A DNA stretch of 50,066 bases from a virus. Of this stretch, positions 7,637 to 18,930 are shown piece after piece; within the stretch, counting starts at the first letter, position 1, and the number at the start of each line of letters is the position of its first letter. The stretch spans positions 1 through 50,066 of the IMG/VR virus record IMGVR_UViG_3300037419_000163. One strand, 5' to 3'. Below the pieces are notes generated by a model. That model saw only the letters and a program-made list of their open reading frames with translations. It had not been told where the DNA came from and made no database searches. The position numbers were made by a program, and so were the translations under genes.

Positions 7637-7642
7637 GGTATG

Positions 7643-7651
7643 TGCTATAAT
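7643..7651 (+). promoter_or_regulatory. Extended -10 promoter TGCTATAAT
   Basis: Exact TGnTATAAT. The expected TSS is near 7658. Confidence 0.5.
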
Positions 7652-7725
7652 GGTATTTGTTTAGTGGTAATGGTTTCCTTGGTTTCAGTCGCTACCTGGC
7701 AGCTCAGATTTTTGATGTTAGGGGG

Positions 7726-7754
7726 TTGACAAGGGTTTTAAACTCTGATTTAAT
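7726..7754 (+). promoter_or_regulatory. Sigma70-type promoter TTGACA-17 bp-TTTAAT
   Basis: Perfect -35, 17-bp spacer and a 4/6 match at -10. The expected TSS is near 7761. Confidence 0.5.
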
Positions 7755-8423
7755 GGCACCATGTTGTTTAGCACTTGGTTTCTGTCACACCGGCCTCACT
7801 TAGATGAGGACGTGCAAAAGGACGGTTTCTTAGTGGCTTGGGAAGAGTTCACGGCTCTCTAACTTAACGTGAAACCGCAAATGGATTTATTCCCGTCCTC
7901 ATGAGGAATATTCTAAGGATTAGCCTAGTAATTGTTTAAATGGATTAGGACTGCCACATCATTTACCCAATTACGATCTGATTAATCTTGAAGTTTGGAT
8001 ATTCAATACTGAATGATGAAACACTCATTCTTTATATTCGCGTAGGGTAATAAATCTTGAATGGGACGTGCGATTAATAATCGCTTAACAACTACCACAT
8101 ATTGCGGATGCTTACAGGGACATGGCAGGCACCATCTTAATTGTGTAAGCATACGATTGAAATCTTCTTAGCCTCCTAATGTTTGAATGGGAATGTATCC
8201 CGACTACGGAGATGGCAACTAAGAAGAGAATATAGTTTTAAAGGTATAACAAGGGATTAGTGCTAAAGACCGCACAGCATGGTTCAGGGTTAAGCGCAAG
8301 CGATAAGGGCAAACCGAATACGCCGCCTAATGTATAGGTAACACACAAGTTAGGTACTTGGGGCAAGAAACGAAATGCAAGAGTCGGTCAGCATTAACGA
8401 ATGTATAACCTGTAGGACAGAAT

Positions 8424-8456
8424 AAGCATTAAGGGCATTAGATGCTTAGTGCCCTT
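8424..8456 (+). terminator. Two interleaved hairpins, AAGCAT/ATGCTT (8424-8429/8442-8447) and AGGGCA/TGCCCT (8432-8437/8450-8455); weak terminator or translational control element
   Basis: Read directly. The downstream U-tract is poor (TATTGGTC). The element lies about 40 nt before the RBS of the first early gene. Confidence 0.35.
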
Positions 8457-8496
8457 ATTGGTCAATTCTGACCATAATCTAATGGAGATAATCACC

Positions 8497-9153
8497 ATGG
8501 CTACCAAATCAAAAGACAAAACGCAAGCGCAACAGGCAAAAACTTTTGAGGATAAGTCTGTTATTGAAGCTAAACCCGCGACAAGCGCCGCTATTGCTAA
8601 GGATACTAAGGCAATTGAGGCAGTCCAAAAAGTTGCCGTGGTCAAGGCAACTAACGATAAAGAGTTCCACGTACTCTGCCAACGTATTAAAGTTAGTGGT
8701 GATGTGCTTGCTACCACAATTCACAATGCTGGATTATATGCATTGCAGCAAGTGAATATTCACGGACAGACTCATCATGGTTTGATGCTTATTGAGGCAG
8801 TTGGCACTAAGCATGATAAGGTGCGTATTCTCAAGTGGCTAATGTTCTTTGGCAAGTTTGGGTACAAGAATAAACTCTTGATATACAAAAAGCGCAAAGA
8901 TATTGCGCCGGAAAATGTAGACAATTGGCTGAAACGTGCGGATGAAACCCCATACTGGGACTTAACCCCACAACCTGAAATGGAAGTAACCATTGATTAC
9001 TTATCAATGCTCAAGTCAATTGTCTCTCGTCATGAAGGCATTCCGAATCTTGAAGAGGCAGGGAAGAAAGTCACGGAAAAGAATGTTGGTGTATTGGCAG
9101 AGGTTTCCAAACTGCTAAAGAAATTTGGTGCGGAGGAACCAAAGACTGCTTAA
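8497..9153 (+). CDS. First early protein, function unknown
   Basis: GGAG at 8484-8487 lies 9 nt before the ATG at 8497 (MATKSKDK...). I prefer this to the listed 8449 start, which lies inside the hairpin element. Confidence 0.65.
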   Translation: MATKSKDKTQAQQAKTFEDKSVIEAKPATSAAIAKDTKAIEAVQKVAVVKATNDKEFHVLCQRIKVSGDVLATTIHNAGLYALQQVNIHGQTHHGLMLIEAVGTKHDKVRILKWLMFFGKFGYKNKLLIYKKRKDIAPENVDNWLKRADETPYWDLTPQPEMEVTIDYLSMLKSIVSRHEGIPNLEEAGKKVTEKNVGVLAEVSKLLKKFGAEEPKTA

Positions 9154-9164
9154 GTAATAAACTG

Positions 9165-9192
9165 AAAGGCATTAGCAATAATGCCTTTTGGC
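9165..9192 (+). terminator. Rho-independent terminator AAAGGCATT-agcaat-AATGCCTTT + TTGG
   Basis: 9-bp perfect stem just after the stop at 9153. Confidence 0.65.
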
Positions 9193-9216
9193 TTATTAAC
9201 TTGAAGGAGATACTAA

Positions 9217-9378
9217 ATGAAATACAAGGTTAAGTATAAAGGACATGTTGTTGCCGAATTCCTTTTTAGATTGGATGCAACAGTGTTTATAGAGAAGAAA
9301 AAGGAAACAACAATATTTCCTTTTCTCTATACACTACATGATGAGGATGATGTGGTAGTTAATCTCGATCTGGTTTAA
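9217..9378 (+). CDS. Small early protein (53 aa)
   Basis: Below the ORF-track cutoff. AAGGAGA lies 8 nt upstream of the ATG. Hand-translated as MKYKVKYKGHVVAEF... Confidence 0.5.
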   Translation: MKYKVKYKGHVVAEFLFRLDATVFIEKKKETTIFPFLYTLHDEDDVVVNLDLV

Positions 9379-9446
9379 ATGAGTCGGTCATTTTTTATTC
9401 ACGTTCACATAATTAAGGAGTAACTATCCAAAAGGCGAGGGCTCTA

Positions 9447-9608
9447 ATGAAAAAATATATTGTTGTTACATGGCAAATGGTTGGACATCTTTATGTCAAG
9501 AAATTTGATGAGTCTAAAGAATATGTTTTGTTTTTAGAACTAATCATTTCTCTAACAAAAGGAAATCATGCTTTTACTGTCTCTTATCTATTGGAAGAAT
9601 CTAAATGA
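9447..9608 (+). CDS. Small early protein (53 aa)
   Basis: Hand-translated as MKKYIVVTWQMVGH... Its stop overlaps the next ATG (ATGA) at 9605. Confidence 0.5.
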   Translation: MKKYIVVTWQMVGHLYVKKFDESKEYVLFLELIISLTKGNHAFTVSYLLEESK

Positions 9609-9826
9609 AAATGACATCTCCTATGACAAGGATTGCAAAAACAACTGTAAATAACTCTTTTATCAGTACAGTATATATTGGGTACTTAGACTTATTATTT
9701 GAAACAATGGTATTTGGTGGGAAACTGGATGGGGTAATGGATAGATGTGATACGCAGGAAGAGGCATTAAAAATGCATGAGAGAATGGTTGAAAGAGTAA
9801 AGAAATCTTACGAAAATAAAGCGTAA
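9605..9826 (+). CDS. Small early protein (73 aa)
   Basis: ATGA-coupled to the upstream ORF. Confidence 0.55.
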   Translation: MKMTSPMTRIAKTTVNNSFISTVYIGYLDLLFETMVFGGKLDGVMDRCDTQEEALKMHERMVERVKKSYENKA

Positions 9827-9905
9827 GATTAGAATTATCTGCAAAAATATTAGCAATAGTATTTTTGCGGGCTAATTTTGGCCGCACAATATAAAGGAAA
9901 ATATC

Positions 9906-10127
9906 ATGGCACAAAATGTCCTCGTTCAGCATCGTGTAAAGTTCAATGATAAAGGTGATGCTATTGGGCTGGAGTTCCACAAGGTCGGTCAGCGCGTTAT
10001 GCCAATCAGCCATTTCTTCAAACATAGAAGTGATAAGGGTAATCGAATGGTTCGTGTGCCTTCGGGTGATACGTGGGCGGTGAGGCCGGTGAACCATGAC
10101 CACTATCAATTCGTAACCACTCTTTAA
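9906..10127 (+). CDS. Small early protein (73 aa)
   Basis: AAGGAA RBS about 8 nt upstream. Confidence 0.55.
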   Translation: MAQNVLVQHRVKFNDKGDAIGLEFHKVGQRVMPISHFFKHRSDKGNRMVRVPSGDTWAVRPVNHDHYQFVTTL

Positions 10128-10247
10128 AATAGGAGACTAACGGCCAGGTTTTAATAATTGTGTGATGACAATAAACTTTGTACCCACATAACGGGAAAGG
10201 AGTTAATCATGTAAGATGTATTCCTAATTAAAGTTAGGAAACTGAAG

Positions 10248-10275
10248 GGAATTCCAAAAGAATTCCTTTTGGTTT
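10248..10275 (+). terminator. Rho-independent terminator GGAATTC-caaaa-GAATTCC + TTTTGGTTT
   Basis: Read directly. It is preceded by a second hairpin, TTCCTAA/TTAGGAA, at 10221-10240. Confidence 0.6.
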
Positions 10276-10316
10276 ATTAACTCGGTTTTTTAACCATGAA
10301 AAGAAGGAGGTATTAC

Positions 10317-10433
10317 GTGTCTGGTAAGTATGAAACACCATTATGGATTGCAACAATTGTCGCAACTGTAGTCGCAGGAGTTCCGATTGTTACGTTCATG
10401 TCTTTGTTCATAGTGCCATTATGGATAAATTAA
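10317..10433 (+). CDS. Small membrane protein (38 aa)
   Basis: GTG start 6 nt after AAGGAGG. It has a hydrophobic core (LWIATIVATVVAGVPIVTFMSLFIVPLW). Confidence 0.5.
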   Translation: MSGKYETPLWIATIVATVVAGVPIVTFMSLFIVPLWIN

Positions 10434-10579
10434 TCAAACGTATATGTCATGATGTAAAGACGATTGAAATAGTACTTCGATCTGAATTCATCAAAGACTC
10501 AAGAAAAATCAAAAGAATCAATGAGCTTGTAAAAGATTTGAAAAATAATTTGGAATTACTTACACAAGAGGAGAAGTAA
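10421..10579 (+). CDS. Small early protein (52 aa)
   Basis: Internal ATG (MDKLIKRICH...) of listed ORF 10343..10579. It overlaps the end of the preceding small gene. Confidence 0.45.
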   Translation: MDKLIKRICHDVKTIEIVLRSEFIKDSRKIKRINELVKDLKNNLELLTQEEK

Positions 10580-10583
10580 ATAA

Positions 10584-10772
10584 ATGTTTGTCGCCATGAT
10601 CTTTCATAAAGATTCGCACAATCCACACCTTTGCTCTGCAAGGGCAGCACGTGTAGCGCCGTTTAAATCGAAGGAAGTTGCAATAAGGGCGATTGAACGG
10701 ACTGGAAAGGAAGGGTATATCAAGCAACTTGGTATAGGCATTCCAGTCTGGCACAATGTAGGTACATTGTAA
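10584..10772 (+). CDS. Small early protein (62 aa)
   Basis: GAGGAGAAG RBS upstream. Confidence 0.55.
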   Translation: MFVAMIFHKDSHNPHLCSARAARVAPFKSKEVAIRAIERTGKEGYIKQLGIGIPVWHNVGTL

Positions 10773-10819
10773 TAACTTCTGTTATCTTCGATTAAATTCT
10801 ATTAAAAACGGACAAAAGA

Positions 10820-10990
10820 ATGAAAATATTAAGAGCAGCATTTGGTTTTGTGGATGTGTTTATCGGAGAAGGATGGTCTAATTGGACTAGAGTTCGCAAG
10901 ATAAAAACTAAGAATGGTTCTCGCGTGGTTTATATAAAGGGGAACAAATTGAATCACCATCAAATGAATACATTGGATAAAAAGATATGA
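10820..10990 (+). CDS. Small early protein (56 aa)
   Basis: Hand-translated as MKILRAAFGFVDVF... ATGA overlap with the next gene. Confidence 0.45.
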   Translation: MKILRAAFGFVDVFIGEGWSNWTRVRKIKTKNGSRVVYIKGNKLNHHQMNTLDKKI

Positions 10991-11199
10991 GAATACAATG
11001 TAAACCAGTAATAGAAGAGACTAACTCTGCTATTTGTATGGGTCATATTTATCAATCAAAAGCTACTAAAAACTTATTCATTGGAGTAGCTGGATCACGG
11101 TTAATTTATCTTGATAGTGGTCATGAAATTCCTATTGATGAGCCTAATAACTATATTGATGTAACTGATCGATTCTCTTTGCAGGAAATTAAGAAATGA
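10987..11199 (+). CDS. Hypothetical protein (70 aa), coupled to the amidotransferase gene
   Basis: ATGA overlaps at both ends. Confidence 0.55.
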   Translation: MRIQCKPVIEETNSAICMGHIYQSKATKNLFIGVAGSRLIYLDSGHEIPIDEPNNYIDVTDRFSLQEIKK

Positions 11200-11795
11200 A
11201 ACACAATCCAGGTATTTTTTATGATAGTAGTTGTCAAGATGTAGAGTTTGATGACTATTTGTTGTTAGGTGGTGGTACTGATATCAATCCAATCATGTAT
11301 GGGCAAAAGAGTTTCGGGTATTGTCAGTCTCCTGATAATAGAAGAGATGCTAGAAACCTTTCCGCTATCAAGAGATACACAATAGAAGGTAAACCTGTAA
11401 TTGGTATATGCCGTGGTCTACAGATTCTGGATGCTTACAATGGTGGAGAGTTAATCCAGCACTCGGTCGGTCATTCGTCGTTGGTTCCGGTATTCGTGCA
11501 AGAAGATGGAAGACTTCCAGATACACTTATTGATAACTGTCGCAGTTGTCATCACCAAGTTGTTGACCATACAAAGACAACAGGAAATATATTGGGGTAT
11601 TCCAATTATCAATACAGAGCGTTCTTTCCTGATACAACAAAGTGGCTTGGTATGCTCCCTCAGATAGTTTATTGGCCTGATCGTAAACATCTTGGGGTTC
11701 AGTTTCATCCTGAATGGCATGGTGAAAATCATTCCATGAATGTCTATCTTCGTTCCCTGATTAAAGAGTTCTTTGATCTGGAAAATGTACTGTAA
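11196..11795 (+). CDS. Class I glutamine amidotransferase-like / peptidase C26 (gamma-glutamyl hydrolase, PuuD-like)
   Basis: GKPVIGICRGLQIL (nucleophile Cys elbow), SCHHQVV, GVQFHPEW (His/Glu). Confidence 0.75.
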   Translation: MKHNPGIFYDSSCQDVEFDDYLLLGGGTDINPIMYGQKSFGYCQSPDNRRDARNLSAIKRYTIEGKPVIGICRGLQILDAYNGGELIQHSVGHSSLVPVFVQEDGRLPDTLIDNCRSCHHQVVDHTKTTGNILGYSNYQYRAFFPDTTKWLGMLPQIVYWPDRKHLGVQFHPEWHGENHSMNVYLRSLIKEFFDLENVL

Positions 11796-11832
11796 TTAAT
11801 CAATATTAAATTAAAAGGATTAGGATTTTAAC

Positions 11833-12621
11833 ATGGGTAATTTGTTTACAATTGGGACTGATACAGAGTTGTTTGCACACAACAAGAACAACGGACAAAT
11901 GATTTCTTTGTGTGGAAAAATCGGAGGTAGTAAGGACAAACCACTTCAAATAAAAGAACTTCCTCGTGGTTATTGTGTTCAAGAGGATAATGTTTCTTTG
12001 GAATTTAATATTCCTCCTGCCACATCGGAATTTGAATTTACCGAATCTATTGCTGCAATGATGATGAGGGTAGGGCTAATACTCAAAGAAATGGGTCTTT
12101 CAGTTTCAGCTATGGCTTCTGCTTCTTTTGCCAAATCTGAATTGACACACCCGAATGCACTTATCTTTGGATGTGAACCAGACTATAGTGCTTGGACTAT
12201 GAGCGAAAATCCAAAGCCTGCTTGTGATGATCCTACCTTTCGTACAGCAGGTGGACACGTCCATGTAGGAACTGATGCTAATATGATTCAAGCAGTTAAG
12301 TGGATGGACTTGTACCTTGGGGTTCCCTCTGTAATTATGGATAAATCCGAAGGAGCAGCAGAGCGTCGTCAACTTTATGGAAAGGCAGGGGCAATGCGTC
12401 CTAAGCCTTACGGATTTGAATATCGGGTTCTTAGTAACTTCTGGGTATTCAAACGTGAATTAACAAATTGGGTCTACAACAATACGCTCCATGCTGTTGC
12501 ACATTCAAAATCAGACATGCCCGAAGAACTTAATGATCGGATCGTCAATTGCATTAATAACTCCGATACTGTTGAAGCTCTTAAAATAGTTTCTAAATAT
12601 CGTATTCCTCATTTCGTATGA
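11833..12621 (+). CDS. Phage COOH-NH2 ligase (glutamine-synthetase-fold amidoligase), type-2-like
   Basis: IGTDTELF, SLEFNIPP, GGHVHVG and GFEYRVLSNFW follow the GS/GCS2-fold ligase motif order. Confidence 0.55.
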   Translation: MGNLFTIGTDTELFAHNKNNGQMISLCGKIGGSKDKPLQIKELPRGYCVQEDNVSLEFNIPPATSEFEFTESIAAMMMRVGLILKEMGLSVSAMASASFAKSELTHPNALIFGCEPDYSAWTMSENPKPACDDPTFRTAGGHVHVGTDANMIQAVKWMDLYLGVPSVIMDKSEGAAERRQLYGKAGAMRPKPYGFEYRVLSNFWVFKRELTNWVYNNTLHAVAHSKSDMPEELNDRIVNCINNSDTVEALKIVSKYRIPHFV

Positions 12622-13124
12622 AAGTAATCGAACATTTTAAAACATTATTACAAATCCCTGATGCATCTATAGCTCTTAATGAGGCACGAGCTAAACTCAG
12701 GGATACAATAATGCGTATAGATGGACACTTAATGAGTGTAGCAACTATGGATTTTGGTACACTCGTAGTTCATGACAAAGATGGTAATGGATATGATTTA
12801 AGTGGGGATGATATTAAGACCCTTGAATTTTTCCTACCAGAATCAGGGGTATATTTTATAAAGGACACACCTATAGCTCTTGTTAAAATTCCAAAGAGAC
12901 AATGGAAAAAGTCATTTAATTGGAGTTTCTACGAGGCTAGTAAAACTTTCAATATATGTGAGTTGGATGAGTCTAAGTGTCATGAAATCTATTTGCATAA
13001 GGGAACAGTGTATTATTTGACAACCCCTATTGGAAAGTATCAAGCTAGGACAGATAAGTTCATATGTCTTAACTCAGTTTTTGAAAATGAATTGAACACC
13101 TTTATTAAAAGATTAAAAAAATGA
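12618..13124 (+). CDS. Hypothetical protein inside the ligase cluster
   Basis: 168 aa with 4-nt overlaps on both sides. Confidence 0.6.
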   Translation: MKVIEHFKTLLQIPDASIALNEARAKLRDTIMRIDGHLMSVATMDFGTLVVHDKDGNGYDLSGDDIKTLEFFLPESGVYFIKDTPIALVKIPKRQWKKSFNWSFYEASKTFNICELDESKCHEIYLHKGTVYYLTTPIGKYQARTDKFICLNSVFENELNTFIKRLKK

Positions 13125-14233
13125 GTGAACCAAAGATAGGGGATATATATGTATATCCCAAACTCAAGGTATATGATGGACTTACGGGTAACTTTCCCAT
13201 TAGGAACCCTGATTTATATTTTGGGATTGAAGTTGAGGCTGAGATGGTCGGTCACATTTCATGCCATACCATACCTGGATCATGGAAGACAGTGGAAGAT
13301 GGCTCTCTCAAGATATCTGGTGCAGAGTATGTAACTGTTCCTATCAAGTTTAAGTTTCTAGAAGTAGAATTAAAAAGGCTTTTTGGAGCTATTAAAGAGG
13401 CCGAATTCTCTTGCCGCACATCCATTCATGTACATATGAATGCAAGAGATATGACTCCTGAAGAGATTGGAAGATTTCTTGTTATCTATATGATATTTGA
13501 GAAAAGCCTCTATCGATTTGCAGGATTTGATCGATGGAAAAATAACTTCTGTGTGCCAATTTACTGTTATGCTAATTATGCAGTAACTATGCTTAGTAGA
13601 CTTCTTAATGGTGGTGGACTATATGAGTCATGGACAAAGTACCATGGCTTAAACTTAGTACCTCTTTATGGTAAAGAAGATTCTTCGGCTAGAATTGGAA
13701 CAATTGAATTTCGTCAAATGAGAGGGAATAATGACGTTGAATTTATTCTCAATTGGTGTAATTTAATTTCCAGTATGAAGAATGCGGCAAAGACGATAGA
13801 GACTAAACAACTTATAGAGTACATTGAGTTTGGGGCGGTGAAGTCTCTAGCTTCAACAGTGTTTACTAAATGGCTCCATCTATTAGAAACAGATGAGTTT
13901 GAAGAAGACACATCTAGATGTCTTACTAAGACTAAATTTGTTCTAAATAAAGTTGGAACACTTAAGAATACTATCGACCAGCCTAAGCCCAGAGCCACAA
14001 AGGTAAAGATTCCTTCACCTTCATTACATACTACTATGAGTATTGATGATCTTATGGCAGATGTGCAAGTTGCATCTGTAAATGATCCTGTGCCAAATTC
14101 ACTTAATAATGCTGCTGCTTCATTTAATAATTGGTTTACTGCACATATACAAGCACAGCAGCAGCCGTCAACGGTATGGACAACAGTAACAGCTAACACT
14201 CAAAATAACAATAATACTACGGGAACTCTTTAA
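13121..14233 (+). CDS. Amidoligase (Amidoligase_2-like COOH-NH2 ligase)
   Basis: YFGIEVEAE, GSLKISGAEYVTVP, TSIHVHMN, GTIEFRQMRGN. Confidence 0.65.
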   Translation: MSEPKIGDIYVYPKLKVYDGLTGNFPIRNPDLYFGIEVEAEMVGHISCHTIPGSWKTVEDGSLKISGAEYVTVPIKFKFLEVELKRLFGAIKEAEFSCRTSIHVHMNARDMTPEEIGRFLVIYMIFEKSLYRFAGFDRWKNNFCVPIYCYANYAVTMLSRLLNGGGLYESWTKYHGLNLVPLYGKEDSSARIGTIEFRQMRGNNDVEFILNWCNLISSMKNAAKTIETKQLIEYIEFGAVKSLASTVFTKWLHLLETDEFEEDTSRCLTKTKFVLNKVGTLKNTIDQPKPRATKVKIPSPSLHTTMSIDDLMADVQVASVNDPVPNSLNNAAASFNNWFTAHIQAQQQPSTVWTTVTANTQNNNNTTGTL

Positions 14234-14235
14234 TT

Positions 14236-15402
14236 ATGTGTGGAATTGTAGGTGTAATGTCAAGATATGCAAATGGACTTTCATTGTCCCAAGTAGATAC
14301 ATTTCAAGAAATGTTATTCGTAGATCAACTACGAGGAAGACATGGAACGGGAATGTTTTGGGATACAAAGAAAAAGAAATCTAATATTATCAAAGGGCCA
14401 ATTCCCTCTCATGAATTTCTAGCCTGTGATAATGTACAAAAAGCCTTTAAGGAGATTTTCCAAGAAGCAAGTTTTATTGTTGGTCATAATCGTCATGCAA
14501 CTAGGGGTGCTCATACTTTTGAGAATACACATCCGTTCCGTGAGAATCACATTACATTGATTCATAATGGGACGTTGCATACTCATAAGCACATGAAAGA
14601 TGTTGAAGTGGATAGTCACGCTATCTGCCATTCTATGGGAGAGATAGGAGAGATACCTACTATTGAAAAGCTAGATGGGGCATTTGCATTAGTATGGTTT
14701 AATTCAAAAGATAAGACATTAAACTTCATTCGTAATTCGGAAAGGCCATTGCATCTTATTGAAACTTTAGGTGGGTGGTTCTTTTCGTCAGAGTTGGGAT
14801 TGGCCGAATGGATTCTTAAGCGGAATAAACTCTCAATTAGTAAATCGGAAATGATTGAGACAGGTTTGCTTTATACCTATTCCGTATATGACCATACGTT
14901 AACAACAGCACAGGTGAAGATTAAAGAACCTTATGATTATTACTTTAAGGGTAATAATAAATGGGAAGCAAAGAATCAGGATTACAGCAGGTCTACCATA
15001 GACTATACAGCACCATCTGCTGGCCCCTTGGTTGTAGCTCCTGAAATAAAGAAAGGAGAATCGAGTGTAGGAGTGGATTTTAAATTAGGACAGATGGTAA
15101 CATTTTCTCCTATACAAATACATGTATCGAATACCACTTATTATCTAGAAGGATTGTGTGATACTCCTCTGAATACCCCTGATATCTATGTTAAGGTGTT
15201 TAATGGTAATAAGACTTACTTAGAAGGATTGTTGGATCATCCTACTCTGAGGGGCGAGGTTACGCAGATATATAGTGATCCTAAGGATAAGAATATCAGT
15301 CTTCGTCTTAAGAATATTACTATGGCTTTATATCCAACTGAGGGAACTGATCTTCCTGATTCTGATCCCTATGTAACAAACATTATGCAGGGAGTTCATT
15401 AG
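14236..15402 (+). CDS. Class II (Ntn) glutamine amidotransferase domain protein with an unknown C-terminal domain
   Basis: N-terminal MCGIVGV (Cys2 nucleophile), GHNRHATRG, HPF, LIHNGTL, DSHAI. Confidence 0.75.
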   Translation: MCGIVGVMSRYANGLSLSQVDTFQEMLFVDQLRGRHGTGMFWDTKKKKSNIIKGPIPSHEFLACDNVQKAFKEIFQEASFIVGHNRHATRGAHTFENTHPFRENHITLIHNGTLHTHKHMKDVEVDSHAICHSMGEIGEIPTIEKLDGAFALVWFNSKDKTLNFIRNSERPLHLIETLGGWFFSSELGLAEWILKRNKLSISKSEMIETGLLYTYSVYDHTLTTAQVKIKEPYDYYFKGNNKWEAKNQDYSRSTIDYTAPSAGPLVVAPEIKKGESSVGVDFKLGQMVTFSPIQIHVSNTTYYLEGLCDTPLNTPDIYVKVFNGNKTYLEGLLDHPTLRGEVTQIYSDPKDKNISLRLKNITMALYPTEGTDLPDSDPYVTNIMQGVH

Positions 15403-16136
15403 TGAATAAGAATTTGGTAATTGTAAGTCCAAGTTGTACGGCTGATTCAGCAGTTCAACTGGCTTCTTTTTTAGAAGTCGGTCATGTTAACATTGCTGAT
15501 ATTCATGATGCATATGAGCCTGACCAAAAGATTATTAATTGGGGATGCTCACGTATTGAAGGCTTCTCAGCAGATAGGATTGTCCTCAATAAGCCGGGGG
15601 CAGTTCGACGTAGTTTGAACAAGTTAACGACATTTAAGCTACTTTCGGATAAAGTTCGTATGCCAACTATGACTCTTGATAAAGAAGAGGCAAAGGGTTG
15701 GGCAGCACAAGGACGAACTGTTGTATGCCGTAATCGAATCAAGGGATGTAAAGGGCAAGGTATAACTAAGTCCAAGAACCCTAGTGAGATTGAATCTATT
15801 GAAGCAAAGTTCTATACTCGTTTCATTGCTAATTGTGACGAGTATCGTATCAATGTATATAAGGGGAGAGTTCTTACAGTATATTATAAGGAACCGGCTG
15901 GGAACGATTTCAGATTCAAGATTAAATTGAATGAGGAAGAAGACTTTCAAGAGTGTGTACAAGAAATGATTAATGCTGTTCATGAACATCTTAAACTGGA
16001 TATGTTTGGTCTGGATGTTCTCCATACTCCAAAGGGAAAGTATTTTCTACTGGAAGTGAATAGTGCTCCTATTCTCTTTCCGATTACAATTAAAAGACTT
16101 GCAAAAGAAATTAAAAAGGATTTTGTAAATGGATAA
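15402..16136 (+). CDS. ATP-grasp ligase (RimK-like)
   Basis: GTG start overlapping the upstream stop. EYRINVYKGRVL and GLDVLHTPKGKYFLLEVNSAP are typical of the ATP-grasp C-terminal domain. Confidence 0.65.
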   Translation: MNKNLVIVSPSCTADSAVQLASFLEVGHVNIADIHDAYEPDQKIINWGCSRIEGFSADRIVLNKPGAVRRSLNKLTTFKLLSDKVRMPTMTLDKEEAKGWAAQGRTVVCRNRIKGCKGQGITKSKNPSEIESIEAKFYTRFIANCDEYRINVYKGRVLTVYYKEPAGNDFRFKIKLNEEEDFQECVQEMINAVHEHLKLDMFGLDVLHTPKGKYFLLEVNSAPILFPITIKRLAKEIKKDFVNG

Positions 16137-16812
16137 GGTTGCAATTAAGCTGTTCCCCGTTGAGAAGAACGCTATAATTTTCTCTGAGATAGGTCAGTTC
16201 ATGGATATTAAGTTTGCATATCTTAATAGTGACTATGAACAAGTCCATAAAGAATGCAAGTGTCGTGATTTTCTAGGAGATATTCCTTGGAGTAGAGCAA
16301 CGGGTAGTCAAGTTCGTATCTATGGTATGAATTATAATTTTGCAGAAAAACCATATGATGTTAATGTTACACGTTTCTCTCTTAAATTTCCTAGACAACA
16401 AGCAATGCTCAGCTTCATTGAGCACTTTTCATTCTTGACGGATAAAGAAGAAAAGTATGGAATTCCTATCAGTGTTCTATATGAGACTAATGAACTGAAT
16501 ACATTGGTTATTGAATCTTCACATCACTGGCAGTCTAACAACTGGAAGCTAAGTCTTCTTACATTTTACATTAAGTGTATGGCATATCCAGAACTAGGCA
16601 AATATAATGGGCCGGAAGCTAGTTATATTAGTTATCTGAAACCTAAGAGGGAAGAGATTCTTCTTAAAAATATAATGAAACCAATGGAAGACACTATTGA
16701 TGACTTATCCACTTCACATAATTATTCAGGATTTGTTGCATTATTGAATACTGATAGTTGGACTGGTCATCCTGCTAGAAAATATTTTGTTGGAGAGGAC
16801 AAACTAGTATAA
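16129..16812 (+). CDS. Hypothetical protein coupled to the ATP-grasp gene
   Basis: 227 aa with an 8-nt overlap upstream and a 1-nt overlap downstream. Confidence 0.6.
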   Translation: MDKVAIKLFPVEKNAIIFSEIGQFMDIKFAYLNSDYEQVHKECKCRDFLGDIPWSRATGSQVRIYGMNYNFAEKPYDVNVTRFSLKFPRQQAMLSFIEHFSFLTDKEEKYGIPISVLYETNELNTLVIESSHHWQSNNWKLSLLTFYIKCMAYPELGKYNGPEASYISYLKPKREEILLKNIMKPMEDTIDDLSTSHNYSGFVALLNTDSWTGHPARKYFVGEDKLV

Positions 16813-17036
16813 TGAGATGTCTTTCTTGTAATATAATCTTAACTGATTTTGAAGCTACACGGAAATATGAATCGTCAGGTGCGTATATTGATATGTGCTT
16901 GAATTGCTTCAGCAAAGCAGATATGGCAGATGTATTAGTAATTGACAGAGCCGATCTTCTTAACGAAGTTAATCAGGTTCCTGACGATGATGCAGAGTTG
17001 TTTGAAGAGGACTGTAATGGGATCGACTGTTGCTAA
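16812..17036 (+). CDS. Zn-ribbon-like small protein with an acidic C-terminus
   Basis: CLSC...CLNC, ending DDDAELFEEDCNGIDCC. Confidence 0.55.
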   Translation: MRCLSCNIILTDFEATRKYESSGAYIDMCLNCFSKADMADVLVIDRADLLNEVNQVPDDDAELFEEDCNGIDCC

Positions 17037-17076
17037 ACACTATTTTGAATGTCATGTGATGAATTGGGATTGTTGA

Positions 17077-17433
17077 ATGGTCAAAAGATTTGATGTAGAT
17101 CATGATAGATATGGAGATTCATTCGGAGAAATAATTGAATCTACTGAGGGAGAGTATGTAAAGTATTCTGATATGCAGACCTATCTTATTTTATTCCGAT
17201 GTAATCTTGAGATGGCTATTAAGCATGATTGTGCTATAGAAATTGAAGAGATTGAGGCAGAAGTGGAGGGGCTGAGGAAGGATGCGGAGCGGTATCGGTG
17301 GATGATGAAAAAACACGACGGCTTTTACAAGTCAGTTGATGCTATGTGGGATAAGTATAAATACAACGACGGGCGCCCATCTAAAGAAGAATTTGACGCC
17401 GCCATCGACGCCGCAATGAAGGAGACGAAATGA
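17077..17433 (+). CDS. Hypothetical protein (118 aa)
   Basis: ORF with a coiled-coil-like central region. Confidence 0.55.
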   Translation: MVKRFDVDHDRYGDSFGEIIESTEGEYVKYSDMQTYLILFRCNLEMAIKHDCAIEIEEIEAEVEGLRKDAERYRWMMKKHDGFYKSVDAMWDKYKYNDGRPSKEEFDAAIDAAMKETK

Positions 17434-17615
17434 AAGCCTTGCTAATTATTATCTTTGTTTCAAAACATCTCGCAATGCCGCCGACTATCTCATCGCAATC
17501 TTTTGAATCGATGGAGCAGTGTGTGCAGGCCCGACATCAAATTAAACAAATCATCGACAAGGAACACAGCATAGACAGCAGGTTAACCGAAACCATAAGG
17601 TGCGTTAAGTTATGA
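17430..17615 (+). CDS. Small hypothetical protein with a hydrophobic N-terminus
   Basis: ATGA overlap. Starts MKALLIIIFVSKHLA. Confidence 0.5.
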   Translation: MKALLIIIFVSKHLAMPPTISSQSFESMEQCVQARHQIKQIIDKEHSIDSRLTETIRCVKL

Positions 17616-17767
17616 AACTACCAGAAGGATGGCCAACAGAAGAGATGATCCGAGCGGCTTATGATAGTGGCTGCGTAGATTACCTCACAGACAGGAGCAA
17701 AGTAATAAAGCTCTTTAATGTGATGCTCTCAGCCGCGCCGACACCACCAGCGCAGCAAAATGATTAA
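17612..17767 (+). CDS. Small hypothetical protein (51 aa)
   Basis: Hand-translated as MKLPEGWPTEEMIRAAYDSG... Coupled to both neighbours. Confidence 0.45.
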   Translation: MKLPEGWPTEEMIRAAYDSGCVDYLTDRSKVIKLFNVMLSAAPTPPAQQND

Positions 17768-18519
17768 TGTCAAATGAATCTTATCTCATTAGTCAAGAAC
17801 GTTGTCCTTCATGCGCTAGTCTTGGCCGTGATAGCACTGGGGATAACCTTAGCATTTACTCCGATGGTCATTCTTATTGCTATGGTTGTGGATATTATAA
17901 GAATGGCTCCGCCCTGCATAGATTTGTAAGTAAAGAAAATTATAGTCAGATGGAAAGACATCATGTATATCTTCCATCTGATTCTAATATTGAATATCCA
18001 CAAAGAGCCTTAGAATGGATCAACCAATATGAACTTAATCGCAATGATTTATTGGCAAATAATGTGGTATGGTCGGAGAGTAAAGAACGGCTATATTTTC
18101 CTGTATATGGTAATGAGGGCTTACTCGCATACCAAGGGAGATACTTCGGTAATAGTAGCACTGACAAGAAATGGTGGGGAAAGGGAGATTTTAAAAATAT
18201 ATTCCCGTTCTATGGGGCTGCGAGTCGGTCACTTGTACTGGTAGAGGATGTAGTCTCAGCAGTAAAACTAAGTAGGGTTACTCAGTCTTTATGGCTCAGT
18301 GGTAATCATGTAGGGGCAGACAGATGGAAAAGGCTATTTAAACTGATTCCTAAGGGGCTACAGTGCATTATTTGGCTAGACCCTGACATGTACACCAAGT
18401 CAATTAAAGAAGGTCGTCTAGGGGCTTCATATGGATTGAATACCAAAAGTATTCTTTCTGATAAAGACCCAAAGGAACACAGCTTTGAAGAAATAAAAAG
18501 GATACTGAATGCCGATTGA
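17767..18519 (+). CDS. DNA primase (Zn-finger + Toprim, T7 gp4 N-terminal-like)
   Basis: CPSC...CYGC zinc finger; LVLVEDVVSAVKL and WLDPD Toprim-like motifs. Confidence 0.75.
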   Translation: MSNESYLISQERCPSCASLGRDSTGDNLSIYSDGHSYCYGCGYYKNGSALHRFVSKENYSQMERHHVYLPSDSNIEYPQRALEWINQYELNRNDLLANNVVWSESKERLYFPVYGNEGLLAYQGRYFGNSSTDKKWWGKGDFKNIFPFYGAASRSLVLVEDVVSAVKLSRVTQSLWLSGNHVGADRWKRLFKLIPKGLQCIIWLDPDMYTKSIKEGRLGASYGLNTKSILSDKDPKEHSFEEIKRILNAD

Positions 18520-18682
18520 CATGATTTATAAGGATGAGTTGATTAAAGAAATACTGGACACCTTAGATGATTATCTGACAGCCCAGATATGTGGATCAGA
18601 GGATGCATGGTTATATATGGAATCACTTCATGTGCATATGAAAAAGTATAAGGAGCTTACCAGATATGAAAGACCTCATTAG
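18509..18682 (+). CDS. Small hypothetical protein (57 aa)
   Basis: Hand-translated as MPIDMIYKDELIKEILD... It overlaps the primase end. Confidence 0.4.
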   Translation: MPIDMIYKDELIKEILDTLDDYLTAQICGSEDAWLYMESLHVHMKKYKELTRYERPH

Positions 18683-18821
18683 AAAACATAAAACTCTAAC
18701 CGCAATACTTTTAACTTTGACTATGCCTATCTGGATAATTCCGGCAGGTATAGCTGTGGTAGCCATAATTTTCTATGCAGCGATACGAGGTTTGTTAGAC
18801 GATATTATAGAAAGTGATTGA
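18666..18821 (+). CDS. Small membrane protein (51 aa)
   Basis: MKDLIRKHKTLTAILLTLTMPIWIIPAGIAVVAIIFYAAI... Confidence 0.45.
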   Translation: MKDLIRKHKTLTAILLTLTMPIWIIPAGIAVVAIIFYAAIRGLLDDIIESD

Positions 18822-18846
18822 CAAACACTAAAAAATAGTGTAGAAT
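18818..18846 (+). promoter_or_regulatory. Sigma70 promoter TTGACA-17 bp-TAGAAT
   Basis: Perfect -35 and a 17-bp spacer containing CACTA..TAGTG. Confidence 0.6.
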
Positions 18847-18878
18847 AAGATTATAATATATTATATATAATATATAAA

Positions 18879-18901
18879 GAATAATACTAACAGTATTATT
18901 C
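18879..18901. promoter_or_regulatory. Perfect 10-bp hairpin GAATAATACT-aac-AGTATTATTC within a roughly 90% A+T tract
   Basis: Read directly. It lies between the promoter and the helicase start. Confidence 0.6.
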
Positions 18902-18930
18902 TAATAATATATAATAATAAGGAATAAATA

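What the first reader, a model, noticed from the sequence alone, without database searches (positions are those of the whole stretch)
11196..16812. Seven translationally coupled genes: two COOH-NH2 amidoligases, an ATP-grasp ligase, class I and class II glutamine amidotransferases and two unknowns
Motifs in the translations identify five enzymes. One is a peptidase-C26/GATase-I protein (GICRG, HHQ, QFHPE). One is a type-2-like phage COOH-NH2 ligase (GTDTE, GGHVHVG, FEYR). One is an Amidoligase_2-like ligase (GIEVE, HVHMN, IEFRQ). One is an Ntn GATase-II (MCGIVG, GHNRHATRG) with an unassigned roughly 190-aa C-terminal domain. One is a RimK-like ATP-grasp ligase. Two unknown ORFs (12618-13124 and 16129-16812) are interleaved, and 4-8 nt overlaps link most junctions. 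As far as I recall, comparative genomics from the Aravind group (the phiEco32-like COOH-NH2 ligase work) predicted such phage clusters to build a peptide or gamma-glutamyl-type tag or metabolite. I am not aware of any experimentally defined product or target. Three amide-bond-forming ligases together with two amide/ammonia-handling enzymes imply a multi-step small-molecule, peptide or macromolecule modification pathway expressed with the early and replication genes.
Basis: partly seen in the sequence, partly recalled or inferred. Interest (0 to 1): 0.8.

Follow-up and report, generated by a model that had tools for sequence, protein, structure and literature searches.

The report
Conserved phage gamma-glutamyl amide-bond gene module
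This is a real, tightly packed set of eight phage genes encoding three ATP-dependent amide-bond ligases, two glutamine-amidotransferase-type hydrolases and three small helper proteins; it is an expanded version of a cassette phage genomics has recognised since 2009, and its product and target have never been determined experimentally.

Summary
All seven ORFs sit at the stated coordinates and all five enzyme assignments survive profile searches.

The window is a complete phage genome of about 49.9 kb with a LUZ24/tf-like layout. The unit probably extends to an eighth gene, a Zn-ribbon protein with an acidic tail at 16812-17036.

The gene order GATase-I, ligase type 2, u3, Amidoligase_2, GATase-II, ATP-grasp, (u7), Zn, primase recurs in about 60 of 124 related viral or MAG loci at 20-65% identity. 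Each ligase stays next to its own amidotransferase even where the order is rearranged.

New details:
- The GATase-I is closest to PuuD-type gamma-glutamyl-amine hydrolases.
- The ATP-grasp is closest to RimK.
- The GATase-II carries a C-terminal OB-like barrel.
- ORF3 belongs to the LUZ24 gp17 family.
- ORF7 is a large, enzyme-like family with no solved fold relative.

The cassette is already described as a "gamma-glutamyl amide / putative peptidoglycan modification" operon (Iyer 2009; Hardies 2013), and I found no experimental function up to 2026.

The best reading is a cytoplasmic pathway that builds and trims gamma-glutamyl amides on an amine or a protein tail (confidence about 0.4). I rate it a new variant of a known but uncharacterised kind, of moderate interest.

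The parts
11196..11795 (+). G1: class-I GATase-fold / Peptidase C26 Cys hydrolase (199 aa), genetically paired with the type-2 ligase
   Evidence: Pfam Peptidase_C26 6e-17 and GATase 1.3e-9; phrog_7218 3e-25. C72, H171, E173 and HHQ119-121 are kept in 99-100% of 106 distinct family members. The family profile against PDB hits Lin1909 3fij at 1.5e-27 and PuuD 6vtv at 2.3e-15, against CarA/GuaA at about 1e-9. It is adjacent to L2 in 100 of 105 loci.
11833..12621 (+). L2: phage phiEco32-like COOH-NH2 ligase type 2 (262 aa)
   Evidence: Pfam PF14395 5.8e-15, above the gathering score; phrog_3815 7e-75. Invariant D10, E12, E57, C114, D117, R137, H142, H144, E196-Y-R198 in 14 diverse members. tblastn finds it in 319 phage records, at least 575 IMG/VR stretches and only MAG contigs among 185,579 species genomes. 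No solved relative by sequence or profile.
12618..13124 (+). u3: small protein always placed between the two ligases (168 aa); LUZ24 gp17 family
   Evidence: No Pfam, PHROG or NCBIfam hit, and only itself in the 5.8-billion-protein word-indexed search. Local profiles seeded from ORF3 and from LUZ24 gp17 converge on the same ORFs (57 shared). It lies between L2 and AL in 92 of 92 loci. Conserved motif P..G.Y...R.P.RQW(K/R)(R/K)(G/S). No PDB hit.
13121..14233 (+). AL: Amidoligase_2-family carboxylate-amine ligase (370 aa) with a variable, low-complexity C-terminal tail
   Evidence: Pfam PF12224 1e-6, 29.3 bits above the gathering score of 22; phrog_7469 3.7e-37. Invariant G35, E37, E39, E41, E69, R99, H103, H105, E127, R138, E196-F-R198 in 27 members. 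tblastn matches in relatives cover only residues 1-283. No solved relative.
14236..15402 (+). G2: Ntn (class-II) GATase-fold enzyme (388 aa): catalytic domain of about 1-235, a disordered linker, and an OB-like beta-barrel at about residues 285-365 (nt 15088-15330)
   Evidence: Pfam GATase_6 4e-15, GATase_4 and GATase_7; phrog_4736 8e-77. M-C-G N-terminus and the HNR..T.G / HNG / VDS motifs are at least 90% conserved in 39 homologues. In the AF2 model of residues 190-388 the barrel part has pLDDT above 90 and the topology b1-b2-b3-helix-b4-b5. Foldseek top hits are all OB folds (SSB 3koj E 1.9e-3 prob 1.0, PolC, PriB, RPA, Pot1, AspRS). It is adjacent to AL in 99 of 102 loci.
15402..16136 (+). 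AG: RimK-family ATP-grasp ligase (244 aa, GTG start overlapping the G2 stop)
   Evidence: phrog_2599 3.5e-30; NCBIfam MptN 8e-8 and rimK_fam 3.9e-7, both far below the curated cut-offs. The family profile against PDB hits RimK 7qys at 3.8e-16 and 4iwx at 4e-15, Ddl at 3e-8 and LysX 1uc8 at 8e-6. Invariant K73, E146, R148, D204, E217, N219.
16129..16812 (+). u7: enzyme-like protein of unknown fold (227 aa), with an invariant KCRDFLGD motif
   Evidence: No Pfam, PHROG, NCBIfam or PADLOC hit. 14 homologues and 1208 clusters at E<=1e-3 among 1.84 billion representatives. 32 invariant columns, mostly polar or aromatic. AF2 pLDDT 84, pTM 0.85. No PDB fold match (best E 0.24, TM<=0.25); the only BFVD match is an uncharacterised phage protein. 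It is present once, twice or fused in relatives, and also occurs in minimal u7-u7-L2-G1-GGCT modules.
16812..17036 (+). Zn: small Zn-ribbon protein with an acidic tail (74 aa); a possible eighth member (it may instead belong with the primase that follows it)
   Evidence: CxxC-x22-CxxC plus a tail with 31% D/E; the start overlaps the ORF7 stop by 1 nt. It is conserved right after u7/AG and right before the primase in most loci. Of 79 loci with G2 and a downstream primase, 44 have a separate Zn ORF only, 25 have both a separate ORF and a Zn ribbon fused to the G2 C-terminus, 10 have the fusion only, and 0 have neither (Fisher p=1.3e-4, not corrected for relatedness). No LysW or other family hit.

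Best explanation
Shown: the region is the window's copy of a conserved module, essentially restricted to phages, of the phiEco32/LUZ24 type. The window version has eight co-directional, tightly packed genes (11196-17036) lying just upstream of the primase and helicase.

The module encodes:
- three ATP-dependent carboxylate-amine ligases: L2 (PF14395), AL (PF12224) and a RimK-family ATP-grasp (AG);
- two Cys-nucleophile amidotransferase-fold enzymes, each genetically paired with one ligase (G1 with L2, G2 with AL);
- three accessory proteins: u3 between the ligases, the enzyme-like u7, and a Zn ribbon with an acidic tail.

Inferred mechanism: a cytoplasmic pathway that builds and trims gamma-glutamyl-type amide bonds.
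1. L2 ligates a carboxylate, most likely the gamma-carboxyl of glutamate, to an amine acceptor. This resembles PuuA, PauA and gamma-glutamylcysteine ligases.
2. G1, whose closest solved relatives are PuuD-type gamma-glutamyl-amine hydrolases, later removes or processes that gamma-glutamyl group.
3. AL and G2 form a second make-and-cleave pair. In other phages GGCT plays the cleaving role.
4. The RimK-like ATP-grasp adds alpha-linked glutamate to a terminal carboxylate.
5. u3 probably bridges the two ligases, and u7 probably supplies a further, unknown catalytic step.

The product would be a small glutamate-containing amide adduct on an amine metabolite (a polyamine-like compound is a good candidate) or on an acidic protein tail. 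It would be made early in infection alongside the replication enzymes. Neither the acceptor nor the biological purpose is known.
For: All enzyme folds are confirmed and the catalytic residues are invariant across families.

The module order is conserved in about 60 of 124 loci. L2-G1 are adjacent in 100/105 loci and AL-G2 in 99/102. In rearranged loci the figures are 22/25 and 13/16, against 0/17 for AL-G1. L2-u3-AL holds in 92/92.

The G1 profile is 6-18 orders of magnitude closer to Peptidase C26 / PuuD-type gamma-glutamyl-amine hydrolases (3fij 1.5e-27; 6vtv PuuD 2.3e-15) than to ammonia-donating GATase subunits (CarA, GuaA about 1e-9). Pfam Peptidase_C26 scores 62.6 bits against 38.4 for GATase.

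A gamma-glutamyl cyclotransferase, which can only act on gamma-glutamyl amides, belongs to the module in LUZ24, tf, the Alcaligenes phage, L076/L078 and the minimal u7-u7-L2-G1-GGCT modules. In Clostridium prophages amidoligase pairs with GGCT instead of a GATase.

The ATP-grasp is closest to RimK alpha-L-glutamate ligases.

From established knowledge, several pathways pair a ligase with a hydrolase or cyclotransferase and use gamma-glutamyl as a transient handle: PuuA/PuuD, EgtA/EgtC and BtrJ/BtrG.

Against: No substrate, product or phenotype is known for any member of the cassette; the whole mechanism is inference from folds and gene order.

L2 and AL have no solved or biochemically characterised close relative, so 'glutamate' as their carboxylate substrate is assumed.

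G2 keeps every residue an ammonia-donating Ntn amidotransferase needs. Tight ligase-GATase adjacency is also what two-subunit glutamine-dependent amidotransferases show. GGCT co-occurs with G1 rather than replacing it, so the three 'trimming' enzymes are not simply interchangeable.

The window itself has no GGCT.

The roles of u3, u7, the OB-like domain and the Zn ribbon are unexplained.
Confidence: 0.4

Rival explanations
1. Glutamine-dependent amidation. G1 and G2 are true ammonia donors that form heteromeric amidotransferases with L2 and AL. Each ligase activates a carboxylate as an acyl-phosphate and converts it to a carboxamide (R-COOH + ATP + Gln -> R-CONH2), as MurT/GatD or asparagine synthetase do. 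The ATP-grasp adds a residue before or after.
For: The L2-G1 and AL-G2 pairings are strict and survive rearrangement, as expected for two-subunit amidotransferases. G1 keeps the Cys-His-Glu triad. G2 keeps the N-terminal Cys and the Arg / Asn-Gly / Asp glutamine-binding motifs. NCBIfam lists GuaA, CarA, GlmS, AsnB and PurF glutaminase domains among the weak hits. From general knowledge, GS-like ligases naturally use ammonia.
Against: G1 is much closer to PuuD/C26 gamma-glutamyl-amine hydrolases than to any ammonia-donating subunit. The recurring GGCT in the module has no role in an amidation scheme. Amidoligase pairs with GGCT instead of a GATase in Firmicute prophages. G2 carries an OB-like domain on a flexible linker rather than a synthase domain.
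Confidence: 0.2
2. Protein-centred pathway. The small Zn-ribbon protein with the acidic tail is the acceptor. It would be either a LysW-like amino-group carrier loaded by the RimK/LysX-family ATP-grasp, or a RimK-type substrate whose tail is glutamylated. The ligases and hydrolases would then work on the tethered group, and the OB-like domain of G2 would serve as a docking module.
For: The Zn-ribbon ORF has a CxxC-x22-CxxC core plus a tail that is 35% D/E and 5% K/R (medians). 34 of 62 distinct members end in E or D. It is syntenic with the module in most loci, and no complete module lacks a Zn ribbon (0 of 79). The ATP-grasp is of the RimK/LysX family. From general knowledge, LysW is a roughly 54-aa Zn-ribbon protein with an acidic tail that is loaded by LysX. 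An archaeal-virus genome-map legend lists LysW, a GlmS-type glutaminase and a carboxylate-amine ligase consecutively, which is only a lead.
Against: There is no sequence match to LysW in Pfam or in PDB profile searches. The C-terminal residue is not conserved, and the window's copy ends in ...IDCC. The Zn ORF is always next to the primase, so it could belong to the replication genes instead. LUZ24-like and minimal modules lack it. The Zn ribbons fused to G2 have no acidic tail. The OB-like domain is slightly acidic (median net charge -2), which is a poor fit for binding an acidic tail.
Confidence: 0.15
3. Cell-wall (peptidoglycan precursor) modification that blocks superinfection or changes lysis. 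This is the hypothesis repeated in the literature.
For: It was proposed by Iyer et al. 2009 and repeated in phage genome papers. Peptidoglycan stem peptides contain a gamma-glutamyl linkage and an ATP-grasp-made D-Ala-D-Ala bond, and they are amidated by GATase-dependent enzymes (general knowledge).
Against: The hypothesis has never been tested. The module has no Mur-ligase, transferase, membrane or secreted component. It sits among replication and nucleotide genes, not lysis genes. Amidoligase + GATase pairs are reported in viruses of Poseidoniales archaea, which have no peptidoglycan. The OB-like and Zn-ribbon parts are not expected for a lipid II or UDP-MurNAc-peptide pathway.
Confidence: 0.1
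4. Nucleic-acid modification. The cassette decorates phage DNA or host/phage tRNA with an amino-acid-derived group, targeted by the OB-like domain and Zn ribbons.
For: The G2 C-terminal barrel matches nucleic-acid-binding OB folds first (SSB, PriB, RPA, PolC, AspRS anticodon-binding domain). Zn ribbons are obligatory. The module always abuts the primase/helicase. Amidoligase and amidotransferase genes co-occur with thymidine hypermodification genes in some viral contigs.
Against: The genome encodes ThyX and no hydroxymethylase or kinase was seen among the annotated ORFs. Native nanopore sequencing against an amplified control of a Vicosavirus related to UFV-P2, which carries the cassette, reported only nicks and no base modification. 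The OB-like domain is not basic (median net charge -2) and is poorly conserved. Foldseek E-values are weak (at best 1.9e-3). The LUZ24-type nick motif is not enriched here (4 found, 4.8 expected). The window has no tRNA genes.
Confidence: 0.08

Closest known systems
phiEco32/LUZ24-type phage 'gamma-glutamyl amide / unusual peptide bond' operon, also called the 'putative peptidoglycan modification module' (Iyer et al. 2009; Hardies et al. 2013; LUZ24 gp16-gp22, tf gp19-gp25, PaP3, RIO-1, PSA-HP1)
   Same: The core and its order are the same: type-2 COOH-NH2 ligase, gp17-family small protein, Amidoligase_2, class-II GATase, ATP-grasp. The position just upstream of the primase/helicase in the early/replication arm of a podophage is also the same.
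   Different: The window version has no GGCT/AIG2. It adds a PuuD-like class-I GATase/C26 enzyme, the u7 protein and a separate Zn-ribbon ORF with an acidic tail. Its G2 lacks the C-terminal Zn ribbon seen in LUZ24 and tf. Proteins are only 32-42% identical to LUZ24, and the ATP-grasp and u3 are not detectable by BLAST. In the IMG/VR sample the G1-containing form is the dominant one, but the papers I read do not describe it.
Puu/Pau/Spu polyamine gamma-glutamylation pathway (PuuA GS-like gamma-glutamyl-putrescine synthetase + PuuD Peptidase C26 hydrolase)
   Same: It pairs a GS/GCS-superfamily carboxylate-amine ligase with a C26 class-I GATase-fold hydrolase. The G1 family profile hits PuuD (6vtv) at 2.3e-15 and related C26 structures at up to 1.5e-27.
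   Different: L2 is not a recognisable PuuA/GlnA homologue (no PDB or NCBIfam hit). The oxidase and dehydrogenase steps of Puu are absent. Polyamines as the substrate are a guess.
RimK (ribosomal protein S6 alpha-L-glutamate ligase) and its relatives LysX/ArgX with the LysW carrier protein
   Same: The ATP-grasp is of the RimK family (7qys 3.8e-16, 4iwx 4e-15, LysX 8e-6). A small Zn-ribbon protein with an acidic tail is encoded nearby, which recalls the S6 tail and LysW.
   Different: Curated RimK, LysX and MptN cut-offs are not reached. The Zn-ribbon protein has no detectable LysW similarity and no conserved C-terminal Glu motif. There are no LysZ, LysY, LysJ or LysK-type enzymes.
Gamma-glutamyl 'handle' biosyntheses (ergothioneine EgtA/EgtC; butirosin BtrJ/BtrG)
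   Same: The logic is the same: a GCS2-type or ATP-grasp ligase installs glutamate, and a class-II GATase-fold (EgtC) or GGCT-fold (BtrG) enzyme removes it. tf gp25 is annotated BtrG-like. ORF5 gives a weak EgtC hit (0.0029).
   Different: There is no homology beyond the superfamily level, and the other enzymes of those pathways are absent.

Membership tests
phiEco32/LUZ24-type phage amidoligase cassette | Type-2 phage COOH-NH2 ligase (Pfam PF14395) present | tested here: met
   55.7 bits against a gathering score of 25, E 5.8e-15; 42% identical to LUZ24 gp16.
phiEco32/LUZ24-type phage amidoligase cassette | Second ligase of the Amidoligase_2 family (PF12224), separated from the first by a gp17-family small protein | tested here: met
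   29.3 bits against a gathering score of 22. ORF3- and gp17-seeded profiles converge (57 shared ORFs). The order L2-u3-AL holds in 92/92 loci. A direct hhalign of the early, small alignments was inconclusive (probability 30%).
phiEco32/LUZ24-type phage amidoligase cassette | Class-II (Ntn) glutamine amidotransferase and ATP-grasp ligase downstream | tested here: met
phiEco32/LUZ24-type phage amidoligase cassette | GGCT/AIG2 gamma-glutamyl cyclotransferase in the cassette | tested here: not met
   A GGCT profile built from LUZ24 gp22 and relatives finds nothing among all six-frame ORFs of the complete genome. GGCT is also absent from most environmental relatives, so it is a variable component rather than a universal one.
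phiEco32/LUZ24-type phage amidoligase cassette | Located in the early/replication arm of a tailed phage, next to the primase/helicase | tested here: met
   Primase at 17767, DnaB at 18931, PolA, RNR and ThyX downstream on the same strand. The module abuts the primase in about 75 loci.
Peptidase C26 / PuuD-like gamma-glutamyl-amine hydrolases (ORF1) | Class-I GATase fold with the Cys-His-Glu triad plus the C26 signature motifs (GGxDIxPxxYG, HHQ) | tested here: met
   Pfam 62.6 bits against 20.5. C72, H171, E173, HHQ, G26-G27-x-D29 and Y35 are 98-100% conserved. PDB profile hits to 3fij and 6vtv. The curated NCBIfam PuuD equivalog cut-off is not reached (29.6 against 266 bits), so it is a family member and not a PuuD orthologue.
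Peptidase C26 / PuuD-like gamma-glutamyl-amine hydrolases (ORF1) | Hydrolyses gamma-glutamyl-amines rather than donating ammonia | not testable with these tools
   Needs an enzyme assay.
RimK-family ATP-grasp alpha-L-glutamate ligases (ORF6) | ATP-grasp fold with the Lys / Glu-Arg / Asp-Glu-Asn ATP-Mg residues, and closest similarity to RimK | tested here: met
   Profile against PDB: RimK 3.8e-16 to 4e-15, next best Ddl at 3e-8. Invariant K73, E146, R148, D204, E217, N219.
RimK-family ATP-grasp alpha-L-glutamate ligases (ORF6) | Reaches the curated family thresholds (Pfam RimK, NCBIfam rimK_fam) | tested here: not met
   Pfam RimK 20.6 bits against 21; rimK_fam 29.7 against 143.4. It is a distant relative, not an orthologue.
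LysW-type amino-group carrier protein (ORF 16812-17036) | Small Zn ribbon followed by an acidic tail | tested here: met
   CxxC-x22-CxxC. The median tail is 33 aa, 35% D/E and 5% K/R.
LysW-type amino-group carrier protein (ORF 16812-17036) | Sequence membership (Pfam LysW Zn-ribbon model or similarity to solved LysW chains) and a conserved C-terminal Glu acceptor motif | tested here: not met
   No LysW hit for any of 28 members at E<=1 in Pfam, and none in the PDB profile search at E<=10. The C-terminal residue is E in 20/62 and D in 14/62 members, and the window copy ends in CC.
Thymidine/pyrimidine DNA hypermodification clusters | dUMP/dCMP hydroxymethylase or TET/JBP plus 5-HMUDK kinase and aGPT-Pplase | tested here: not met
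   The only thymidylate-synthase-type gene is ThyX (Pfam Thy1 3.4e-52). None of the ORFs scanned in the replication arm matches such enzymes. Not every small ORF was scanned.
Two-subunit glutamine-dependent amidotransferase (ligase + glutaminase complex) | Physical complex with an ammonia tunnel and synthase-stimulated glutaminase activity | not testable with these tools
Only the conserved adjacency is shown.

The most novel reading that the evidence does not exclude
The cassette is a protein-templated biosynthetic or tagging system of phages. The acidic-tailed Zn-ribbon protein would act as a LysW-like carrier, or as a RimK-type substrate, on which the three ligases and two hydrolases assemble a glutamate-containing adduct. 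u7 would be a new enzyme fold, and the OB-like domain of the class-II amidotransferase would be the docking module. The product would serve the replication machinery or counter a host defence. If so, this would be the first carrier-protein-mediated pathway of this type, or the first enzymatic protein-tail glutamylation system, known in viruses.
Probability: 0.15. Interest if true: 0.8.

Novelty: new variant of a known kind. Interest (0 to 1): 0.55.

Why it matters
This cassette is among the most widespread multi-enzyme modules of tailed phages whose function is still unknown. It occurs in 319 sequenced phages, including therapy candidates of the LUZ24/PaP3 group, and in at least 575 IMG/VR contigs. 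Several marine and freshwater lineages carry it.

For about 15 years it has been labelled a "peptidoglycan modification" module without any test of that label.

This work adds several concrete handles for experiments:
- The dominant environmental form has eight genes.
- The ligases and amidotransferase-fold enzymes form fixed pairs.
- The class-I enzyme is PuuD-like.
- The ATP-grasp is RimK-like.
- Three accessory proteins, one with no known fold, are integral parts.

These points turn a vague annotation into specific assays: gamma-glutamyl-amine chemistry, glutamylation of an acidic tail, and complex formation. They also weaken the cell-wall and DNA-hypermodification ideas. If the product turns out to be a new metabolite, a protein tag or an anti-defence molecule, the finding would matter for phage biology and for enzymology, since it would involve two ligase families and one fold with no structure.

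Tried and rejected
1. A megablast of the cluster against 50,697 phage records found nothing. The phage has no close sequenced relative, so I used protein-level and profile searches instead.

2. Single-sequence searches for ORF3 found only itself in the 5.8-billion-protein database. Single-protein scans of IMG/VR for ORF3 and ORF7 also found nothing. Alignment-based scans worked.

3. An early hhalign of ORF3 against the LUZ24 gp17 family was inconclusive (probability 30%). The link only appeared with profiles built from about 80 loci.

4. The ORF7 family is not related to LUZ24 gp14/gp15, tf gp17/gp18 or other flanking hypothetical proteins (hmmsearch --max, E>0.2). One hhalign script timed out.

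5. The ORF7 model has no PDB fold match. Its only BFVD match is an uncharacterised phage protein.

6. L2 and AL gave no PDB hits by sequence or profile. A profile-profile comparison of L2 against AL aligned only the R-T-x-G-H-x-H motif (probability 0.8%). Their common superfamily therefore rests on Pfam/Iyer classification, not on my tests.

7. The idea that G1 replaces GGCT is rejected, because the two co-occur in several loci.

8. A link to the LUZ24-type nicks is rejected for this phage, because the motif is not enriched.

9. Thymidine hypermodification is rejected: the genome has ThyX only and no hydroxymethylase or kinase was seen.

10. LysW membership of the Zn-ribbon protein is not supported by sequence.

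11. The idea that the OB-like domain is basic (nucleic-acid or acidic-tail binding) is not supported; its median net charge is -2.

12. No protein of the module matches PADLOC defence models.

13. The promoter scan found no more sites than shuffled sequence (37 against 44), so operon boundaries could not be set.

14. The Iyer 2009 paper itself is not in the library. Its content is taken from papers that cite it and from memory.

Full report
**Observation**

The seven + strand ORFs are at exactly the stated coordinates, and the quoted motifs are in their translations. Junctions are +37, -4, -4, +2, -1 and -8 nt, so the genes are tightly packed.

The packing continues on both sides. The upstream ORF 10987-11199 overlaps ORF1 by 4 nt. 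A 74-aa ORF (16812-17036) starts on the last base of the ORF7 stop codon.

The window is a whole phage genome. It has an exact 127-bp terminal overlap, which leaves about 49.9 kb of unique sequence. It is a single JGI contig and encodes no tRNA.

The layout resembles LUZ24, tf and PaP3:
- The early and replication genes lie on the + strand from about 8.4 to 30.2 kb. They include a primase, DnaB, a split PolA, exonucleases, RNR and ThyX.
- The structural genes lie on the - strand.

There is no close sequenced relative at the DNA level.

**Enzyme assignments**

| ORF | Assignment | Evidence |
|---|---|---|
| ORF1 | Peptidase_C26 / class-I GATase | Pfam 6e-17 and 1.3e-9 |
| ORF2 | COOH-NH2_lig PF14395 | 5.8e-15, above the gathering score; PHROG 7e-75 |
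| ORF4 | Amidoligase_2 PF12224 | 1e-6, above the gathering score; PHROG 4e-37 |
| ORF5 | GATase_6/4/7 in residues 1-190 | 4e-15; PHROG 8e-77 |
| ORF6 | RimK-family ATP-grasp | PHROG 3.5e-30; details below |

As a single sequence, ORF6 only reaches sub-threshold ATP-grasp hits. A profile of 29 family members hits solved RimK structures at 3.8e-16 to 4e-15, ahead of Ddl (3e-8) and LysX (8e-6). The ATP-grasp catalytic residues are invariant.

Catalytic residues are conserved in every family:
- G1: C72, H171, E173 and HHQ in 99-100% of 106 sequences.
- G2: the N-terminal Cys and the glutamine-binding motifs.
- L2: the D/E-rich metal site, the H-x-H motif and the E-(Y/F)-R motif.
- AL: the corresponding motifs.

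Neither ligase has a solved relative detectable by sequence or profile.

**The unit is conserved**

The closest record is MW202697.1, a Manatee Spring podovirus. It has all seven genes in the same order, including an unannotated ATP-grasp.

An alignment-based scan of IMG/VR with ORF7 returned ten loci, and most carry the whole set. A scan with the L2 alignment found at least 575 viral stretches. A scan of one genome for each of 185,579 species found 35 hits. All were on MAG contigs, and most showed the same phage-like architecture. L2 is therefore essentially restricted to phages.

I used locally built family profiles on 124 non-duplicate loci. The order G1-L2-u3-AL-G2-AG-(u7)-(u7)-Zn-primase is found complete in about 60 of them. 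Most of the others are cut by contig ends.

| Adjacency | All loci | Rearranged loci only |
|---|---|---|
| L2-u3-AL | 92/92 | not counted |
| L2-G1 | 100/105 | 22/25 |
| AL-G2 | 99/102 | 13/16 |
| AL-G1 | 3/97 | 0/17 |

The module therefore consists of two ligase/amidotransferase pairs joined by u3, plus the ATP-grasp.

Cultured phages keep the core L2-u3-AL-G2-AG just upstream of the primase/helicase, usually together with a GGCT/AIG2 cyclotransferase. This is seen in LUZ24, tf, the Alcaligenes phage QDWS535 and Pseudoalteromonas phage Slicky01.

A minimal variant, u7-u7-L2-G1-GGCT-G1, exists in several MAG contigs.

**The unknown parts**

*ORF3.* It has no database match by itself. Profiles seeded from it and from LUZ24 gp17 converge on the same ORFs, so it is the gp17-family protein that always sits between the two ligases. 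It has one short conserved motif, RQW(K/R), and no fold assignment.

*ORF7.* It belongs to a large family: 1208 clusters in 1.84 billion representatives. The family has 32 invariant, mostly polar or aromatic positions, including KCRDFLGD. The predicted structure is confident (pLDDT 84, pTM 0.85) but has no PDB fold match. It looks like an enzyme with a fold not represented among solved structures.

*The C-terminal half of ORF5.* It consists of a disordered linker of about 50 residues followed by a five-stranded barrel with a helix between strands 3 and 4. Foldseek places this barrel among nucleic-acid-type OB folds, but weakly (best E 1.9e-3). The domain is slightly acidic and poorly conserved, so I treat it as a docking domain of unknown specificity.

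*The 74-aa ORF after ORF7.* It is a Zn ribbon with an acidic tail and is conserved in synteny. Among 79 loci that have both G2 and a downstream primase, none lacks a Zn ribbon:
- 44 have the separate Zn ORF only.
- 25 have the separate ORF and also a Zn ribbon fused to the G2 C-terminus.
- 10 have the fusion only.

The Fisher p-value is 1.3e-4 and is not corrected for relatedness. However, the Zn ORF is always next to the primase, and the fused ribbons lack acidic tails. Its membership in the module is therefore probable, not certain.

**Mechanism**

Two readings compete for the amidotransferase-fold enzymes. They could be ammonia donors to the ligases, or they could be hydrolases of gamma-glutamyl amides made by the ligases. 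The evidence favours the second reading, at least for the L2/G1 pair.
- The G1 family profile matches Peptidase C26 / PuuD-type gamma-glutamyl-amine hydrolases at 1.5e-27 to 2.3e-15. It matches CarA and GuaA glutaminase subunits only at about 1e-9.
- A gamma-glutamyl cyclotransferase recurs in variants of the module.
- Amidoligase pairs with GGCT in Firmicute prophages.

Known pathways use the same logic of a transient gamma-glutamyl handle: PuuA/PuuD, EgtA/EgtC and BtrJ/BtrG (general knowledge).

The RimK-like ATP-grasp would add alpha-linked glutamate to a terminal carboxylate.

I therefore propose a cytoplasmic pathway that builds and trims a gamma-glutamyl amide, producing a small glutamate-containing adduct on an amine metabolite or an acidic protein tail. 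My confidence is about 0.4. Every step beyond the fold assignments and the gene pairing is inference.

**Rivals**

| Rival | Confidence | Main points |
|---|---|---|
| Glutamine-dependent amidation | 0.2 | Fits the strict pairing and the intact glutaminase sites. It does not explain GGCT or the PuuD-like nature of G1. |
| Protein-centred (LysW- or RimK-substrate-like) pathway around the Zn-ribbon protein | 0.15 | Attractive, but fails the sequence tests for LysW. It also lacks a conserved C-terminal acceptor residue. |
| Peptidoglycan modification, the literature hypothesis | 0.1 | Untested. Sits poorly with the absence of any wall-related component. Amidoligase + GATase pairs are reported in viruses of archaea without peptidoglycan. 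|
| DNA or tRNA modification | 0.08 | Suggested by the OB-like fold and the replication context. The evidence against it is listed below. |

Evidence against DNA or tRNA modification:
- The genome has ThyX only.
- The barrel is not basic.
- A relative of UFV-P2, which carries the cassette, gave normal native nanopore reads apart from nicks.
- The nick motif is not enriched in this genome.

**Comparison with what is known, and novelty**

The cassette was predicted by Iyer et al. 2009. [quoted passage not shown] Others call it a "peptidoglycan modification cassette".

Nine full-text searches, with the relevant papers read, found no experimental determination of product, target or phenotype up to 2025-26.

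The window's version differs from the described ones in four ways:
- It lacks GGCT.
- It adds the PuuD-like G1.
- It adds u7.
- It adds the separate Zn-ribbon gene.

This G1-containing form is the commonest one in IMG/VR. I rate it a new variant of a known, uncharacterised kind.

**Verdict**

The novelty claim is reduced because the cassette is well known in phage genomics.

The interest is moderate, at about 0.55. Its existence is not surprising. It is nonetheless a long-standing open question that the present anatomy makes directly testable.

Noticed in passing
window 1-127 and 49940-50066: The first 127 bases are repeated exactly at the end of the window. The contig is therefore a complete, circularly closed or terminally redundant phage genome with about 49,939 bp of unique sequence.
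   Followed up: partly
window 21631-24364: The family-A DNA polymerase is split into two ORFs (21631-22872 and 23039-23776), followed by an endonuclease-like ORF (23786-24364, phrog_3322). A split polymerase is also reported for LUZ24-like phages.
   Followed up: no
L004 11040-13145; L006 13323-15473; L012 13094-15241: In several related contigs the DnaB helicase matches the window's protein in two pieces separated by about 0.8-0.9 kb. This suggests an intein, intron or homing-endonuclease insertion that the window's gene lacks.
   Followed up: no
window 4619-5851 (-): A 410-aa ORF near the tail-fibre genes has a weak glycoside-hydrolase (GH5 cellulase-like) match just below the Pfam threshold (23.4 bits against 23.5). 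It may be a polysaccharide depolymerase.
   Followed up: no
L001 16338-17677; L005-L008; proteins P0136 and P0137: The u7 gene occurs as a tandem pair (one divergent copy plus one conserved copy) in many relatives, and as a fused 421-aa two-domain protein in the representative library. The window has a single copy.
   Followed up: partly
L014 982-3263 (Pseudoalteromonas phage Slicky01): Ribose-phosphate pyrophosphokinase and nicotinate phosphoribosyltransferase genes (NAD salvage or reconstitution type) lie a few kb upstream of the amidoligase cassette in this phage.
   Followed up: no
window 7000-19000: Terminator-like hairpins are about twice as frequent as in shuffled sequence (13 against 5.8, sd 2.2). 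Examples are at 7120-7147 at the strand switch and at 9838-9871. Sigma-70-like promoter matches are not enriched.
   Followed up: no
window 13121-14233, residues about 285-370 of ORF4: The Amidoligase_2 protein ends in a low-complexity tail of about 90 aa rich in N, Q and T. Relatives do not conserve it: matches stop at residue 283 or earlier, and homologues range from 250 to 445 aa.
   Followed up: no
window 8449-9153: A 234-aa early ORF (phrog_1448, unknown function) is conserved 2-3 kb upstream of the cassette in L001, L003, L004 and L006.
   Followed up: no
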